Virus record (IMG/VR): IMGVR_UViG_2905373006_000003
Coordinates: 16,719-80,718 of that record
Length of the DNA: 64,000 nucleotides
From: a virus
Lineage: Duplodnaviria; Caudoviricetes
Reading direction: 5' to 3' (one strand)
Each line of letters starts with the position of its first letter. Position 1 is the stretch's first letter. A model generated the notes under the pieces. It saw only the letters and a list, made by a program, of their open reading frames with translations, ran no database searches and had not been told where the DNA came from. The translations under genes and the position numbers were made by a program. This document shows positions 48,302-57,730 of the stretch, piece by piece.

Positions 48302-48478
48302 TTACCTCGTCGTTTTTTGTGGTTTAACCTTAGGTTGATAAGGTGCTTTTGTTCTCGCTCTTGCTAACGCATGGAGACGGTCAATATGACACTGTGTATG
48401 GTCTAACCCATCATCAGGTAATATGGGGTGATTATCACGAACAAGAAATTCGTGAGTAAGAGAGTCTTTAATTAACAT
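48302..48478 (-). CDS. 58-aa hypothetical protein
   Basis: Read by hand: AGAGGCAAGACC-ATG, MLIKDSLTHEFLVRDNHP...KPQKTTR. Confidence 0.65.
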   Translation of the reverse strand: MLIKDSLTHEFLVRDNHPILPDDGLDHTQCHIDRLHALARARTKAPYQPKVKPQKTTR

Positions 48479-48532
48479 GGTCTTGCCTCTAATATTTAAC
48501 TTAATGGCTTGGTCGAGCCCTAATTAACTTAT

Positions 48533-49951
48533 CTAAAATGCTTCTGTAGCTTGTTGTCCTTTTCGTGCATAGCTTTTTCTATTATCATTTCCTTTAAATG
48601 ACAACCTTTCTGCCTCCCCCTTACTAATATTTTTAATATAAGAATTCACCAACTGAGCATAAGCGGTACCAGTATTTCCATCACGATTTAATCTGAGAAG
48701 AATTTCCATTAGAGATTTATCAGCATTATCGTTATAAACAGCATCACGATATAAACCAATCCATACATCACAATCTTGCTCAATTTGCCCTGTATCACGG
48801 CTATCAGCGGGAGTTGGCCGTTTATCTGCCCTATCTTCCAATTTACGGTTAAGTTGGGTTAATAACAGGACAACACAATCCATTTCTTTTGCTAGATTTT
48901 TTAACCCCGTAGTAATATCACCATATGCAATATCACGACGTTCAGCCTGACCAGCCTTGATAAGGGTAAGGTAATCAATCGCTATTAGGCCTACTTGCCC
49001 TTTAGCTCGTTTAACTTTGCGACATTCAGCTATGATATGGTTAAGATCAATACCAGGAGTGCTATCGATATACATATTCGATTCTGCAATCTCTTTTGCT
49101 CTGGCTAATGCTCTAGCCATTTCCATATCATCATGTGTACCTGTATAAAAAATATCTGCAGATACATCGCCTTCTTGAGAGATCATTCGTTCAATGATCC
49201 CACGGTCTGTCATCTCAAGGCTGAAAAGCAATGTGGGTAACTTATGGTTTAATGCAAAGTGAGTTGCAACACGATTATAAAATGCGGTTTTACCCATTTT
49301 GGGTCTTGCACCAACAACAATTAATGATCCTCTCAATGCCTGCTTGGGAGCCATTAACTCATCCAGTGACTCTATACCCAAAGTAAAACCCACTGCATTT
49401 TTAGGATCACTAAAGCGCCTATCAACATCATCAAGCCAATCTCCAACAACATCTAGAGCAGGTCTTAAGCCTTTGCTTTTTCCTGTTTTAGCGTGTTCGA
49501 TAATGCTTGATACAATCTGCTGAACATTTGATAGTTTATTGTTGATATCAAGACCATCATTCGCCATTAGCATCTCTACACAAGTATTCAGATTATTGAT
49601 AGCGTAACGCTGTATTGCATTGTCTCGTACAATCCGAGCGTAATTCACAATGTTAGCAACTGAAGGTAATCTACAAAGCTCCGCTATGTAGGCAAATCCC
49701 CCAACTTTTTCTAAATCACCGCTACGTGTTAAAGAGTCACTAACTGTAATGATATCTGTTGGATAATCAGATTTTATTAACTTCACTATCTCTGTAAAAA
49801 TTCGACTGTGAGATCTTGAATAAAATGATCCTGATTTAACTAGTGATATCACATGTTGACGCTTATCTTCGTCAGTGCTGATCATCAAGCCACCTAGTAC
49901 AGCCTGCTCTGCTTCAAGATTGTATGGAGGAGTGAAATAATCATTTGTCAT
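48533..49951 (-). CDS. dnaB: Phage replicative DnaB-like helicase
   Basis: PPYNLEAEQAVLG, GARPKMGKT, FSLEM, IDYLTL, QLNR, DSRDTGQIEQDCD. Confidence 0.95.
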   Translation of the reverse strand: MTNDYFTPPYNLEAEQAVLGGLMISTDEDKRQHVISLVKSGSFYSRSHSRIFTEIVKLIKSDYPTDIITVSDSLTRSGDLEKVGGFAYIAELCRLPSVANIVNYARIVRDNAIQRYAINNLNTCVEMLMANDGLDINNKLSNVQQIVSSIIEHAKTGKSKGLRPALDVVGDWLDDVDRRFSDPKNAVGFTLGIESLDELMAPKQALRGSLIVVGARPKMGKTAFYNRVATHFALNHKLPTLLFSLEMTDRGIIERMISQEGDVSADIFYTGTHDDMEMARALARAKEIAESNMYIDSTPGIDLNHIIAECRKVKRAKGQVGLIAIDYLTLIKAGQAERRDIAYGDITTGLKNLAKEMDCVVLLLTQLNRKLEDRADKRPTPADSRDTGQIEQDCDVWIGLYRDAVYNDNADKSLMEILLRLNRDGNTGTAYAQLVNSYIKNISKGEAERLSFKGNDNRKSYARKGQQATEAF

Positions 49952-50771
49952 TAGCACGTTCCTCCTTAACCGCAACATAACAACGTTCCGTAATTAAATA
50001 ATCTAAATTTTTACGTCGCCATGTCCCCCCTCGCCCATTATCTCGATCCTCCATCATCCATCGACAATTACTGGCAATATACGATAAATAATTCTCCCAG
50101 CGCTCTTGATTGAATTTAAATTTTATCCAGAAATTTCTTAGCTTCCGTTTACGCTCATCAGTCATCACTTTGATAGCAGGCATATCAGACAAAATATCGT
50201 GATATGAATTAATAATATTTTCATAATTCAATTTAATTTTTGATGACGATTTTTTGTCGTCAGGTTCTCCTGACGTACCATCAGTAATATCTGTAGTAAT
50301 ATATGTAGTAATCTCTGTAGGATCGAACTGCGGATTTGTTTCATCGCCACCGTCAGTTTTGTCTTGTCGCGGTCGTTCGTTTTGTTGTTCCGCGAAATCA
50401 CTATTGTGACTTTCCCCAGTTGCGCTTTGCGCATTTGGTGCATTTTCAATAGGTTGTGACATGACATAATCTAATTTTTCACAGTCAATTAGATAATAAA
50501 TTTTATGCTCTAAGCGTTTATTAGTCTCAACCAGAATACCTCTGCTAACTAAATGCTTTCTAGCCGTAAGCTGTTCTCGGTAGCTTAAACCCGTCTCAGA
50601 TTCAATTTCTTCTGATGTTTTATAAACACCTAATTTAGAGTCAGCTTTATCTTGCCAATAAAATATTTGGCTAAAAAATATTACTGCATTTACACTGCCC
50701 AAACGTTTTACTAGCCCAGGGAAATAAGCAACTGGACGTCCAAAATCTAATAACAAATCAGATGCTCTCAC
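49941..50771 (-). CDS. Replication initiator (O-like)
   Basis: N-terminal wHTH, C-terminal DYLI motif; upstream of helicase. Confidence 0.85.
   Translation of the reverse strand: MRASDLLLDFGRPVAYFPGLVKRLGSVNAVIFFSQIFYWQDKADSKLGVYKTSEEIESETGLSYREQLTARKHLVSRGILVETNKRLEHKIYYLIDCEKLDYVMSQPIENAPNAQSATGESHNSDFAEQQNERPRQDKTDGGDETNPQFDPTEITTYITTDITDGTSGEPDDKKSSSKIKLNYENIINSYHDILSDMPAIKVMTDERKRKLRNFWIKFKFNQERWENYLSYIASNCRWMMEDRDNGRGGTWRRKNLDYLITERCYVAVKEERANDK
50283..50430. repeat. Putative origin repeats inside initiator gene
   Basis: Three tandem 12-mers AGTAAT(A/C)T(C/A)TGT at 50283-50318 and regularly spaced (G/A)TTTG motifs beyond. Confidence 0.5.
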
Positions 50772-50772
50772 T

Positions 50773-50997
50773 TTACACCCCCAGTGCTTTAGCTATATTA
50801 CGGCAAGCATTTTGGTACTGCTCAGGGGTTAAATTTTTTGACAGTAATTTTTGTTTTTCTCGCTCATACTGCTCCCAAATTAACAACGCAATAACGCGTC
50901 TACCATCAAAAATATGTTGGATATCTGAGATATGAGCAGGTTTATCATTCAGCATAAACCCATTGCGGTATGTGATTTTTTCAGTTGATCTAATCAT
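50773..50997 (-). CDS. Small protein coupled to the initiator gene
   Basis: AGAGGCAAGACCA-ATG start; stop 1 bp from the initiator GTG. Confidence 0.75.
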   Translation of the reverse strand: MIRSTEKITYRNGFMLNDKPAHISDIQHIFDGRRVIALLIWEQYEREKQKLLSKNLTPEQYQNACRNIAKALGV

Positions 50998-51014
50998 TGG
51001 TCTTGCCTCTTGAA

Positions 51015-51470
51015 TTAATGCACGCTGGTCGGGCGTGATATCTCATTTAGTGCACGTACTACATTGTTTATTTGGTGTGACATGTCACGACCCTCTAATA
51101 AGATTTCAGTCATAGCATCAGCAAAACGCTGAATGGCTACAGTTGCTAAATAGTTTTTGGTGTCTCCACGTACTCGAGCTAACCTCGACGCCGGTAGAGC
51201 CATTTCAATCGCTGGCATTAACTCAGCAATTTTTCTTTGAGATGCGCGAGAATCACCACGTAACCAACGGAATATCTGTTGCCGGTTATTATTGATTGCT
51301 TTCCAGTCTGCCTTACCCGTTTGATCTTCAATGGCATGTAATCGACCATGTTCTTGATTAATCACTAATCGTAAGTAAGCTCGGCTAATCTCAATAGCAA
51401 CATGTTCTTGCCCTTGTTCTACCGCCCAATCTTCAAGTTCAGCTCTGATAATGTTGATATCAAAATTCAT
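51015..51470 (-). CDS. CII-position regulator (YdaT-like)
   Basis: IRAELEDWA...NNRQQIFRWLRGDS...KIAELMPAI..ALP; follows cro. Confidence 0.8.
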   Translation of the reverse strand: MNFDINIIRAELEDWAVEQGQEHVAIEISRAYLRLVINQEHGRLHAIEDQTGKADWKAINNNRQQIFRWLRGDSRASQRKIAELMPAIEMALPASRLARVRGDTKNYLATVAIQRFADAMTEILLEGRDMSHQINNVVRALNEISRPTSVH

Positions 51471-56865: not shown

Positions 56866-56912
56866 TTCATAATAGCGCCCTTTATTGGGCGCATTATCAG
56901 GAGATAAACGTT

Positions 56913-57092
56913 ATGGCCATGAAGTTAGAAGTTGTTATTACCCATGATGAAGCAACCAATAAATGCAGTATCGAATGGTCTACAGCATCAACAAAAAATG
57001 TCACAGAGCAAGAACAGCAAGCACTTTCATCAATGCAAAAAGCGTTATTGCTACAACTGGGGCACCCTATAAATACAGCTATTATTCATTAA
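56913..57092 (+). CDS. 59-aa hypothetical protein
   Basis: Read by hand: AGGAG RBS, MAMKLEVVITHDE...TAIIH. Confidence 0.6.
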   Translation: MAMKLEVVITHDEATNKCSIEWSTASTKNVTEQEQQALSSMQKALLLQLGHPINTAIIH

Positions 57093-57119
57093 GTGACATG
57101 TCACAAAGAGGCAAGACCA

Positions 57120-57290
57120 ATGCTTAGACACTCTCAACAAAAAGACCAAGCCGTAAAGATCACATTACCTGATGGTACACATGGCTTTGTTTCAACAGAT
57201 AGACGTTGCCATGTTTCATACGATTTTCCTGCACACGTCAAAATTGAACTTCAGCCTACTCCCGCGGAGCAACAAAGGAGTGAACAATAA
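57120..57290 (+). CDS. 56-aa protein, possible CsrA-like fold
   Basis: MLRHSQQKDQAVKITLPDG...HVSYDFPAHVKIE; strand pattern resembles CsrA. Confidence 0.55.
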   Translation: MLRHSQQKDQAVKITLPDGTHGFVSTDRRCHVSYDFPAHVKIELQPTPAEQQRSEQ

Positions 57291-57460
57291 TGTATGGTTT
57301 ATTCCTTTTGGTATGTAGTTCGGTAAATTGTCAGTTTGAGCCCTATGGCTACATTTATCCTGATGAACAAAATTGTTTAATTGATAAAGAGGTACTCGCG
57401 ACCAAAGGAAAAATTGCAGAGTGCTATCCAGTAGAGGGAATTATTCGAGTAAAAAGTTGA
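57290..57460 (+). CDS. DUF1482/YdfD-like small Cys protein
   Basis: Read by hand: MYGLFLLVCSSVNC...Y.DEQNCL...ECYPVEGII. Confidence 0.7.
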   Translation: MYGLFLLVCSSVNCQFEPYGYIYPDEQNCLIDKEVLATKGKIAECYPVEGIIRVKS

Positions 57461-57532
57461 TTAAGCATAATCAGTTTTTACTTTTCGTTGTTATTAGCAT
57501 GGTGGCTTATTCAAGACCAATGGGTGACCACC

Positions 57533-57730
57533 ATGAAATTATTAACACCTTGGAAACCAGGGAACCAAGTATTAACAAGTTTTGATATTAAATTAGGTCG
57601 GTTAGCGTTCAGTGTAAGAAATAGACCATGCACTGACGCTGAAATCAAACACTCCTGTGATACAGCAGACCGACTTATTTTATTGATGATGAGGCAAGAC
57701 CAAAATGAGCGGAAAACTGATGAAAGCTAG
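57533..57730 (+). CDS. Hypothetical protein
   Basis: MKLLTPWKPG...; start embedded in hairpin 57498-57535. Confidence 0.6.
   Translation: MKLLTPWKPGNQVLTSFDIKLGRLAFSVRNRPCTDAEIKHSCDTADRLILLMMRQDQNERKTDES

What the first reader, a model, noticed from the sequence alone, without database searches (positions are those of the whole stretch)
48476..57535. Target leaders display GACCA in hairpin loops: kissing sites for the predicted sRNA
Seen on mRNA strands: GGCT-CGACCA-AGCC (48519-48506) and CACGC-CCGACCA-GCGTG (51037-51021, in the last codons of the cII-like gene), each just upstream of the 16-mer RBS. Also TAGTT-ATCGACCAA-AGCTA (52883-52901), a long hairpin 57498-57535 with CAAGACC in its loop that buries an ATG, paired GACCAA at 44625-44642, and GACCAA twice at the gp157 start (56367, 56394) behind AGAGGCAA. 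Stems differ while loops are conserved, which indicates selection on RNA structure. The cII 3'-end site is where OOP acts in lambda, but here the partner would be trans-encoded (inference).
Basis: partly seen in the sequence, partly recalled or inferred. Interest (0 to 1): 0.72.

Follow-up and report, generated by a model that had tools for sequence, protein, structure and literature searches.

The report
GACCA-loop hairpins beside phage RBS tags
Several early genes of this prophage carry a small RNA hairpin that displays the letters GACCA just upstream of a shared ribosome-binding tag, and these loops probably give the phage's own IsrB-like small RNA a second grip on those messages, though binding has not been tested.

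Summary
GACCA itself is not enriched in the window (117 vs 108±11). Near start codons it counts 16 vs 6.3 expected, but 7 of the 16 lie inside the shared 13-mer tag AGAGGCAAGACCA.

The support comes from relatives:
- In prophages with the same tag, GACCA lies 1-45 nt upstream in 11 of 45 distinct contexts (about 2 expected; TGGTC in 0).
- 22 of 130 seven-nt-loop hairpins next to the tag carry NNGACCA, against 22 of 25,947 elsewhere. At least eight different stems close these loops.
- Hairpins at the same sites occur in Pectobacterium phage ZF40 and Stenotrophomonas phage BUCT708.

The partner RNA is well supported. It is an IsrB-family sRNA at about 53769-53656 (-), with a strand-specific fold. 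Its anti-tag changes together with the tags in four lineages.

The loops never vary, so loop-to-loop pairing could not be tested by covariation. The sites at 44.6 kb and the Gam start are not loops. Verdict: observation partly confirmed and kissing plausible (about 0.5). The scan noted the same pattern earlier on other DNA (e1-6203474, e1-5357457).

The parts
53656..53769 (-). IsrB-family sRNA gene, the proposed partner. Order: SL1, single-stranded anti-SD stretch, SL2 (loop UUUGGUCG), SL3 (loop UUUGGUCG, apex UGGUCGG), terminator. The 5' end is inferred.
   Evidence: Rfam isrB RF01386 scores 36.8 bits (gathering score 35) at 53656-53780(-). Fold -43.1 kcal/mol, z -4.8. On 41 relatives, 98.2% of cells are paired and 11 pairs show compensatory changes. 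SL1 has 83 G-U cells and 0 A-C cells, so it folds only on this strand.
53776..53804 (-). Candidate sRNA promoter TTGTGC-17-TAAAAT.
Evidence: Read by eye. It falls below the threshold of the scan, which lists TTAAAA-18-TATCAT (53782-53753) instead. The -10-like element changes sequence but persists in relatives (TAAAAT, TATATT, TATACT).
48506..48519 (-). Hairpin GGCU-CGACCA-AGCC after dnaB, 15 nt upstream of the tag at 48478-48490.
   Evidence: Kept as GGCU-(A/U)GACCA-AGCC in L042 and L011, lost (GAACA) in the L052 type. Hairpins at the same position, GCGC-CUGACCA-GCGC, follow dnaB in ZF40 and BUCT708.
51021..51037 (-). Hairpin CACGC-CCGACCA-GCGUG in the last codons of the cII-like gene, 10 nt upstream of the tag at 50998-51010.
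   Evidence: 33 of 35 unique contexts keep GACCA. On 15 distinct rows 97.3% of cells are paired and 2 of 5 pairs show compensatory change. BUCT708 has AGCGC-CUGACCA-GCGUU at the same site; ZF40 has none.
52883..52912 (+). pL leader: hairpin UAGUU-AUCGACCAA-AGCUA, then a degenerate tag ACAAGGCAGACC with no start codon.
   Evidence: z -2.11. Conserved in relatives, many of which carry the fuller ACAAGGCAAGACC. ZF40's leader has CAAGGCAAGACCA without an ATG.
53693..53755 (+). Sense (pL mRNA) copy of the module: two GACCAA-loop hairpins, the tag and an ATG. It is the exact complement of the sRNA, so it is the cis target.
   Evidence: z -2.72. The ATG and the mini-ORF are not conserved (AACGG variants keep the 13-mer).
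57498..57535 (+). Long hairpin with 7-nt loop AGACCAA (57514-57520). The ATG at 57533 lies in the 3' arm.
   Evidence: (-21.3 kcal/mol, z -2.77). Close relatives change the U-G pair to U-A in the stem. 2 of 14 listed variants have a changed loop.
46088..46100 (-). Tag AGAGGCAAGACCA before the 103-aa gene. No upstream GACCA hairpin; a second GACCAA lies about 16 nt inside the gene.
54385..54397 (+). Tag before the 655-aa exonuclease gene. No GACCA hairpin.
57107..57125 (+). Tag before the 56-aa gene. The tag folds on itself as AGGCA-AGACCAA-UGCUU.
   Evidence: The same self-hairpin occurs at ZF40 gp13 and gp05.
57690..57702 (+). Tag with one mismatch (UGAGGCAAGACCA) before the 70-aa gene upstream of the integrase gene.
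44626..44641 (-). Two GACCAA copies upstream of the 65-aa gene. They are not hairpin loops.
   Evidence: The second copy pairs in cis. The first copy is not conserved.
56367..56398 (+). GACCAA twice at the Gam start, behind AGAGGCAA. Not loops; the second copy is not conserved.

Best explanation
This lambdoid prophage is probably from Morganellaceae, because multi-copy matches to its tag are in Proteus, Providencia, Xenorhabdus and Photorhabdus. It marks a set of early genes with a private translation-start tag, AGAGGCAAGACCA(A)UG. It also encodes, antisense to the pL operon, an IsrB-family sRNA with the exact anti-tag and two hairpin loops that read UUUGGUCG.

Some tagged messages carry a short hairpin 9-20 nt upstream of the tag. 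In the window these are the messages after the cII-like gene and after dnaB. Relatives have further cases. The hairpin's 6-7-nt loop displays (C/A)NGACCA.

Proposed mechanism (inferred, not shown):
1. These loops are accessible first-contact sites that pair with the sRNA's UUGGUC loops, best with the SL3 apex UGGUCGG.
2. This contact brings the anti-tag onto the tag.
3. The resulting 13-16-bp duplex then blocks 30S binding.

The pL leader and the 57.5-kb hairpin display the same letters and may be further contact sites.

What is shown and what is inferred:
- Shown here: the motifs, their folds, their recurrence on unrelated stems, the sRNA gene's conserved strand-specific structure, and tag/anti-tag co-variation.
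- Inferred: that the loops touch the sRNA, and what follows from that contact.
For: 1. Association with the tag.
- GACCA lies at -45..-1 in 11 of 45 distinct tag contexts against 2.0 expected (binomial P 4e-6). TGGTC occurs in 0 of 45.
- 22 of 130 unique 7-nt-loop hairpins within 40 nt upstream of the tag have GACCA at loop positions 3-7, against 22 of 25,947 elsewhere. It is the commonest loop word there.

2. Conserved loop on changing stems.
- Loop counts among the 22: CTGACCA 14, CCGACCA 3, CAGACCA 3, ATGACCA 1, ACGACCA 1.
- Stems include CACGC, CACGT, CGCGT, GCGC, ACGG, CGGG, TGCGG, ATGCGC and GGCT.

3. cII-end hairpin: 97.3% of cells paired and 2 of 5 pairs with compensatory change. 5 of 500 shuffles reach the observed score. 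The threonine codon ACC and the flanking G and A are kept while the neighbouring residues change (P, Q, L, M).

4. Deep conservation.
- ZF40 has ACGG-CUGACCA-CCGU before gp05 and GCGC-CUGACCA-GCGC after dnaB.
- BUCT708 has such hairpins at both the cII end and the dnaB end, although its tag has changed.

5. The partner RNA is well supported: Rfam isrB hit, covariation, strand-specific G-U pairs, and R1 hits in ZF40 (70.5 bits) and BUCT708 (57.5 bits).

6. Tag and anti-tag change together in four lineages:
- AGAGGCAAGACCA with UGGUCUUGCCUCU (this window's family).
- CGAGGCAAGACCA with UGGUCUUGCCUUG (ZF40).
- GAGGAAAGACCA with UGGUCUUUCCUC (BUCT708).

7. Complementarity. Nearest-neighbour duplex energies of the target loops with SL3 are -8.5 to -12.8 kcal/mol. 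Random 9-mers give -3.2 +/- 2.2, with the 1st percentile at -9.5. SL3 is at least as good as SL2 in all six cases and better in five.

8. YUNR words stand in the sRNA loops (UUGG) and in the commonest target loop (CUGA). The introduction of PMC4485353 describes YUNR as a general feature of loop-loop antisense recognition (passage read).
Against: - Only 2 of the 6 trans tags in the window have an upstream GACCA hairpin, so a hairpin is not needed for a gene to carry the tag.
- Inside the window GACCA is not enriched overall. Lenient GACCA loops are common, 27 window-wide.
- The two small hairpins add no stability above shuffles (z -0.39 and -0.10).
- The core letters never vary in the sRNA or the targets. 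Loop position 2 (C, U or A) varies with no matching change in the sRNA. No covariation therefore supports loop-to-loop pairing.
- ZF40 lacks the cII-end hairpin.
- Two of 15 distinct cII-end rows have a mutated loop (GACAA, AACCA).
- In the variant-tag lineage, whose sRNA has no UUGGUC in the SL3 position, one CCGACCA hairpin still occurs, 51 nt upstream of a tag.
- The counts come from loci fetched by an exact match to the tag. Many of them are close relatives, so the P values overstate independence.
- No transcript ends or levels could be read.
Confidence: 0.5

Rival explanations
1. The hairpins are sites for a protein or for RNA processing, and the sRNA does not touch them. Examples would be a phage or host RNA-binding protein that reads GACCA loops, an RNase III or RNase E site, or a 3'-end stabiliser at cistron boundaries. 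Their likeness to the sRNA loops would arise because the sense strand of the sRNA gene is one more such site.
For: - SL2 and SL3 are almost entirely Watson-Crick, so they fold on both strands. The pL mRNA therefore displays two GACCAA loops of its own.
- The hairpins sit at gene ends (cII, dnaB), where processing or stabilising elements are common. That last point is established knowledge, recalled.
- An earlier first-reader note (e1-6221222) suggests a CsrA-like 56-aa protein at 57120-57290. This was not tested here.
Against: - No candidate protein was identified.
- A stabilising or processing hairpin needs no fixed loop sequence, yet this loop is kept over at least eight stems and three phage lineages.
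- The loop is the exact complement of the most conserved part of an sRNA whose pairing with the adjacent tag is backed by co-variation.
- The CsrA motif GGA (recalled) is absent from the loops.
Confidence: 0.2
2. The hairpins have no function of their own. They would be decayed partial copies of the sRNA-locus module (hairpin plus tag) spread by module exchange, joined by chance GACCA words. The apparent conservation would reflect shared ancestry of closely related prophages.
For: - The sense strand of the sRNA locus has the same layout of GACCAA-loop hairpin followed by the tag.
- Many loci are near-identical.
- The window-level statistics are unremarkable.
- The Gam and 44.6-kb sites do not hold up.
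Against: - Decay would erode loops as fast as stems. Instead the stems have turned over while the 7-nt loop size and the GACCA word stay.
- Compensatory stem changes occur inside a coding region.
- The hairpins persist at the same two sites in BUCT708, where the tag itself has changed.
- TGGTC occurs in 0 of 45 contexts against 11 of 45 for GACCA.
Confidence: 0.15
3. The GACCA sites do pair with the sRNA, but they act as decoys or sponges, or as switches of local mRNA structure, and not as kissing starters. For example, the pL leader and the sense copy at 53.7 kb could soak up the sRNA once pL fires, and the 57.5-kb hairpin could open when its loop is bound, freeing its buried ATG.
For: - The pL leader carries a GACCA loop plus a tag-like word with no start codon, here and in ZF40.
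- The 13-mer at the sRNA locus is kept even where its ATG is lost.
- The 57.5-kb hairpin hides an ATG in its stem.
Against: - Nothing tests direction (repression or activation) or stoichiometry.
- The cII-end and dnaB-end hairpins stand directly before tagged start sites, which fits repression more simply.
Confidence: 0.1

Closest known systems
IsrB-1 / IsrB-2 sRNAs of Salmonella prophages Gifsy-2 / Gifsy-1 (Rfam RF01386)
   Same: - The Rfam model matches above its gathering score.
- Same place and orientation: antisense, just upstream of the RecE/sbcA-like exonuclease gene of the pL operon (Table 1 passage of PMC2330248).
- Same SL3 loop GCUUUGGUCGG and the same kind of terminator.
   Different: - The Gifsy-2 copy has only SL3 and the terminator. 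It has no SL1, no anti-tag and no SL2 (R1 scores only 28 bits).
- GACCAA is not enriched in Gifsy-2's first 20 kb (3 vs 10.5 expected).
- I found no published targets for IsrB (searches; passages read in PMC2330248 and PMC5391140).
c4 antisense RNA of phages P1/P7 (immI: c4-icd-ant)
   Same: A phage-encoded antisense RNA that helps keep a lytic function silent (passage of PMC8198154). As I recall it, from no call, c4 uses two short loop sequences that pair with two sites in the target, one of which covers the RBS.
   Different: - c4 is cut from the same transcript as its single target.
- Here the sRNA has its own convergent gene and 6-7 dispersed targets marked by a tag.
- No Rfam C4 match in the window.
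Kissing-loop antisense controls of plasmids (CopA/CopT of R1, RNAI/RNAII of ColE1, Sok/hok)
   Same: Short complementary hairpin loops of 6-7 nt carrying a YUNR word (PMC4485353 introduction), followed by a longer duplex that blocks function.
   Different: Those pairs are cis-encoded and fully complementary. Here the stems of target and sRNA do not match, so only the loop (6-7 bp) and the tag (13-16 bp) can pair. The names and details of these systems are recalled.
Lambda OOP antisense RNA acting at the 3' end of cII mRNA
   Same: The site lies in the last codons of the cII-like gene.
   Different: OOP is cis-encoded and overlaps cII (recalled). Here the contact would be a 7-nt loop read by an RNA made 2.7 kb away. 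The tag that follows belongs to the next gene.

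Membership tests
IsrB sRNA family (Rfam RF01386), for the proposed partner | Match to the Rfam covariance model at or above the gathering score | tested here: met
   36.8 bits against a gathering score of 35, E 0.0015, at 53656-53780(-), with a 42-nt insertion (SL2). The gathering-mode scan with default filters reported nothing, so the match is marginal.
IsrB sRNA family (Rfam RF01386), for the proposed partner | Antisense position upstream of the exonuclease gene of the early-left operon | tested here: met
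   Window layout. Gifsy-2 locus lies between STM1009 and STM1010. PMC2330248 Table 1 passage.
IsrB sRNA family (Rfam RF01386), for the proposed partner | Conserved, strand-specific secondary structure with an intrinsic terminator | tested here: met
   98.2% of cells paired, 11 compensatory pairs, 0 of 500 shuffles as high. SL1 and the terminator have 100 G-U cells and 0 A-C cells.
IsrB sRNA family (Rfam RF01386), for the proposed partner | Made as a discrete RNA of about 90-115 nt | tested here: inconclusive
   Two raw-read RNA runs held no reads of this stretch. Two contig runs gave long flat contigs that show no transcript ends.
Loop-loop (kissing) antisense recognition | Complementary sequences displayed in hairpin loops of both RNAs | tested here: met
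   Target loops CGACCA, CCGACCA and AGACCAA against sRNA loops UUUGGUCG. Duplex energies -8.5 to -12.8 kcal/mol with SL3.
Loop-loop (kissing) antisense recognition | YUNR (U-turn) word in a recognition loop | tested here: met
   UUGG in both sRNA loops. CUGA in the commonest target loop (14 of 22). The criterion comes from the PMC4485353 introduction. The fold itself was not modelled.
Loop-loop (kissing) antisense recognition | Co-variation between the two loops | tested here: inconclusive
   The sRNA SL3 loop is (G/A)CCGACCAAAG in every distinct combination but one (GCTGACCAAAG in L147), and the GACCA core never varies. Target loop position 2 varies (C, T, A) with no matching change.
Loop-loop (kissing) antisense recognition | Physical binding that depends on the loops | not testable with these tools
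   Needs gel shifts, structure probing or interactome data.
Lambda OOP-type cis-antisense control of cII | Antisense RNA gene overlapping the cII 3' end | not tested
   One search lists only consensus matches on the + strand: a promoter-like site at 51077-51104 and a terminator-like site at 51211-51227. These were not followed up.

The most novel reading that the evidence does not exclude
A modular RNA addressing system in temperate phages, with three parts:
- A private start-site tag, which differs between phage lineages and co-evolves with the anti-tag of an IsrB-like master sRNA.
- An invariant GACCA 'zip code' displayed in 7-nt loops on a subset of messages.
- The sRNA, which carries UUGGUC three times and reads both. 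The loops would set which tagged messages are caught first, and the pL leader and the sense copy would act as built-in sponges once pL fires.

This would give each phage its own post-transcriptional immunity specificity, layered on repressor immunity.
Probability: 0.3. Interest if true: 0.8.

Novelty: new variant of a known kind. Interest (0 to 1): 0.58.

Why it matters
IsrB has been known as a prophage sRNA since 2008, but I found no published target for it. If the model holds, IsrB relatives would silence a whole set of early genes (exonuclease, Gam-region genes, genes after cII and dnaB, a gene next to the integrase gene). They would act through a tag each phage keeps private. The GACCA loops would be the first example of a shared display site that grades trans targets of a phage sRNA.

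The idea is directly testable with ordinary reporter and gel-shift assays. ZF40 is a cultured phage with the same parts.

Tried and rejected
Searches and steps that led nowhere
- Megablast and blastn of the region against the phage collection found nothing. Only a protein search found named relatives.
- RNA evidence: raw-read runs X22 and X23 held 0 reads of the stretch. Contig runs X10 and X9 gave long flat contigs (17.7 and 4.9 kb). No transcript start, end, strand or level could be read. These contigs only showed that related prophages lack 52931-53635.
- RNAalifold on the MAFFT alignment mis-drew SL2 because of indels. I gave my own structure, built model R1 and realigned.
- The first realignment, A2, took in 5 weak opposite-strand matches. 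I dropped it and repeated the search at E 1e-20, keeping 41 of 41.
- Whole-RNA duplexfold of the sRNA against 103 leaders gave long unrealistic duplexes and ranked unrelated genes high. I did not use it.

Ideas considered and dropped
- N-type nut sites: the boxB-like hairpin GCUCGGAAAGACGGGC has no second copy in the pR operon.
- Pairing of GACCAA with the 16S rRNA 3' region: considered from memory of the E. coli sequence. It would need bulges and bases that lie in helix 45. Not tested.
- CsrA-type binding: the loops have no GGA.

Tests with limited power
- sRNA/target loop co-variation: no variation to work with.
- The downstream GACCA count (9 of 45 clusters) is inflated, because six of those clusters are the same gene family and one row shows no GACCA in the printed stretch. 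I give it no weight.
- An order-level scan with R1 found matches in only 5 of 151 sampled genomes. That sample says little about distribution.

Literature
- Searches for a published account found none. These gave listings only, except for the passages named elsewhere in this report.
- Supplementary files were not opened.
- The original ZF40 genome paper was not seen.

Full report
SETTING

The window is part of an 80.7-kb provirus record. Bases 43-59 kb hold a lambda-like immunity and early region.
- The cI-like repressor gene is at 51873-52631 (+).
- The rightward-type operon runs on the minus strand: cro, a cII-like gene (51015-51470), a 74-aa gene, an O-like gene, dnaB (48533-49978), then small genes, ninB and others.
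- The pL-type operon runs on the plus strand: a 130-aa gene, then 110-aa and 86-aa genes, a 655-aa exonuclease gene, a Gam-like gene, small genes and the integrase gene.
- The closest named phage is Pectobacterium phage ZF40, which has the same gene order.

THE SHARED TAG

The 13-mer AGAGGCAAGACCA occurs six times exactly, plus once with one mismatch. Each copy stands directly before an ATG. There are no further copies in the whole record, and none of the reversed control.

The 16-mer with its ATG is found in at least 117 viral stretches, often several per contig. Multi-copy matches in bacterial genomes are in Proteus, Providencia, Xenorhabdus, Photorhabdus and Rouxiella. Single matches in unrelated taxa fit chance by my own estimate for a 16-mer in 596 Gb.

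THE OBSERVATION INSIDE THE WINDOW

All quoted sequences are present.
- GACCA is not enriched window-wide: 117 against 108.3 +/- 10.8.
- Around 103 ORF starts it counts 16 against 6.3 expected, but seven of those are the tag.
- Folding of 76-nt leaders puts GACCA in a hairpin loop at four sites on the sense strand: 48519-48506, 51037-51021, 52883-52901 and the 57.5-kb hairpin (loop AGACCAA, ATG 57533 in the stem). The sense strand of the sRNA gene adds two more.
- It does not do so at 44.6 kb, where the motif pairs in cis, or at the Gam start.
- A lenient hairpin rule finds 27 GACCA loops across the window, so such a loop is not rare in itself.

THE TEST IN RELATIVES

From loci fetched by the tag I took 334 unique contexts, which fall into 132 clusters. 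Of these, 45 clusters come from loci with two or more tags.
- GACCA lies at -45..-1 in 11 of the 45, against 2.0 expected (P 4e-6). TGGTC lies there in none. GACCA is the only 5-mer among the top ten that is not A+T-rich.
- Among unique hairpins with a 7-nt loop and a stem of at least 4 bp, 22 of 130 that lie within 40 nt upstream of a tag have GACCA at loop positions 3-7, against 22 of 25,947 elsewhere. Their distance to the tag is 9-20 nt.
- The loops are CTGACCA (14), CCGACCA (3), CAGACCA (3), ATGACCA (1) and ACGACCA (1), on at least eight different stems.
- These counts are not independent. The loci were chosen by the tag, and many are close kin.

SITE-BY-SITE CONSERVATION

- The cII-end hairpin keeps GACCA in 33 of 35 unique contexts.
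- On 15 distinct rows, 97.3% of its cells are paired and 2 of 5 pairs show compensatory change, for example CACGC/GCGTG to CACGT/ACGTG. One side of that change alters an amino acid.
- Two rows have a mutated loop (GACAA, AACCA).
- The dnaB-end hairpin is kept in two of three distinct relative variants, with its first loop base free (C, A or T), and lost in one.
- The pL-leader hairpin is followed by a tag-like word with no start codon. Both are conserved.
- The 57.5-kb hairpin is conserved among close relatives only, and two of the 14 listed variants have a changed loop.

DISTANT PHAGES

ZF40 has tags (C/T)GAGGCAAGACCA before gp03, gp05, gp07, gp13, gp16 and gp18. It has hairpins ACGG-CUGACCA-CCGU before gp05 and GCGC-CUGACCA-GCGC after dnaB, but none at the cII end.

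Stenotrophomonas phage BUCT708 has a changed tag, GAGGAAAGACC(A/T). It still has CUGACCA-loop hairpins at both the cII end and the dnaB end.

THE PARTNER RNA

Rfam's isrB model matches 53656-53780 on the minus strand, at 36.8 bits against a gathering score of 35. That strand folds into hairpins with UUUGGUCG loops and a strong terminator.

I aligned 41 relatives and built model R1.
- 98.2% of cells are paired, 11 pairs show compensatory change, and no shuffle does as well.
- A 5' hairpin (SL1) has 83 G-U cells and no A-C cell. The terminator has 17 and none.
- These two elements therefore fold only on the minus strand. SL2 and SL3 fold on both strands.
- SL1 lies upstream of the anti-tag, so the RNA must include the whole anti-tag. 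This fits the promoter TTGTGC-17-TAAAAT (53804-53776), read by eye.
- The 13-mer at this locus is kept even where its ATG is lost.

Salmonella IsrB-1 and IsrB-2 are experimentally detected RNAs of 88 and 94 nt at the equivalent place (PMC2330248, passages). They are listed among ProQ-associated prophage sRNAs (PMC5391140, one passage). The Gifsy-2 copy has only SL3 and the terminator.

TAG AND ANTI-TAG CO-VARIATION

Four lineages pair a different tag with a matching anti-tag:
- AGAGGCAAGACCA with UGGUCUUGCCUCU, here.
- CGAGGCAAGACCA with UGGUCUUGCCUUG, in ZF40.
- GAGGAAAGACCA with UGGUCUUUCCUC, in BUCT708.
There the 12-mer occurs 5 and 8 times, clustered around the sRNA gene, with no reversed controls.

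This supports pairing between the sRNA and the tags in trans. It does not bear on the loops.

THE LOOPS AS CONTACT SITES

For:
- The SL3 apex UGGUCGG is the complement of CCGACCA, and of CUGACCA with one G-U.
- Duplex energies with SL3 are -8.5 to -12.8 kcal/mol. They are at least as good as those with SL2 in all six cases and better in five. Random 9-mers give -3.2 +/- 2.2.
- SL3 is also the part shared with Salmonella IsrB, and it stays intact in ZF40, where the SL2 loop has drifted to UUUGUC.
- Both partners carry YUNR words, a hallmark of loop-loop antisense recognition (PMC4485353 introduction).

Against:
- The core never varies, so there is no covariation.
- Most tagged genes lack a hairpin.
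- In the variant-tag lineage, whose sRNA has no UUGGUC at the SL3 position, near-tag hairpins are almost absent. One CCGACCA hairpin nevertheless stands 51 nt upstream of a tag. The sample is too small to weigh either way.

CONCLUSION

The hairpins are real and recurrent, and their loop sequence is under selection. The best reading is that they are accessory recognition sites for the IsrB-like sRNA. I put this at about 0.5.

The rivals are:
- a protein or processing site;
- inheritance without function;
- a decoy or switch role.

The scan's earlier notes on other DNA reached a similar reading (e1-6203474, e1-5357457). I treated them as leads only. The ZF40 lead came from one of them and was checked here.

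Noticed in passing
window 53740-53752 and 46088, 48478, 50998, 54385, 57107, 57690; L245 (ZF40); L246 (BUCT708); L269, L270: The start-site tag and the sRNA anti-tag change together in four lineages (middle letters CAA, CAA with a changed first base, AAA, TAT). In each lineage several dispersed genes carry the lineage's own tag.
   Followed up: partly
window 52931-53635: Contigs of two RNA-library runs join 52930 directly to 53636. Related prophages therefore lack this 705-bp piece, which holds the 130-aa gene and the convergent 66-aa gene. It looks like an inserted moron between the pL leader and the sRNA gene.
   Followed up: no
window 1563-1574, 51077-51088, 57093-57104: The palindrome GTGACATGTCAC occurs three times against 0.12 expected. 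In relatives it is kept about 60 nt upstream of the cII-end tag, in two different cII families, and directly before the tag of the 56-aa gene. It is possibly a protein-binding site.
   Followed up: no
window 51077-51104 (+) and 51211-51227 (+): A promoter-like site (GTGACA-16-TAAGAT) and a terminator-like hairpin lie on the strand antisense to the cII-like gene. Together they would give an OOP-like antisense RNA of about 120 nt. These are consensus matches only.
   Followed up: no
window 52918-52933; L270 near 2076 (-): A boxB-like hairpin GCUCG-GAAAGA-CGGGC is conserved in pL leaders. A CCCCGGAAAGACGGGC version stands directly before a tag in another genome. There is no second copy in the pR operon of the window.
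   Followed up: partly
window 57109-57125; L245 7704-7720 and 2200-2186: In genes that begin ATGCT(T/A), the tag folds on itself as AGGCA-AGACCAA-UGCU(U). GACCAA is then in a 7-nt loop, and part of the SD and the AUG are in the stem.
   Followed up: no
window 53753-53767: The mini-ORF after the tag at the sRNA locus (ATG plus three codons and a stop) is not conserved. Some relatives run on in frame, and others have no ATG but keep the 13-mer.
   Followed up: partly
window 51494-51517 and 57459-57480: A similar palindrome with T runs, TGATTA(T/A)GCATAATCA, lies between cro and the cII-like gene and again after the 56-aa ORF at 57290-57460. It looks like a two-way terminator at the tR1 position (read by eye).
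   Followed up: no
window 44595-44670 (-): The leader of the 65-aa gene forms a long-range stem between CCUUUG..CAG and CUGACCAAAGG. In relatives the 5' arm reads CCUUGGUCAG, a better complement. It is a cis structure and not a displayed loop.
   Followed up: partly
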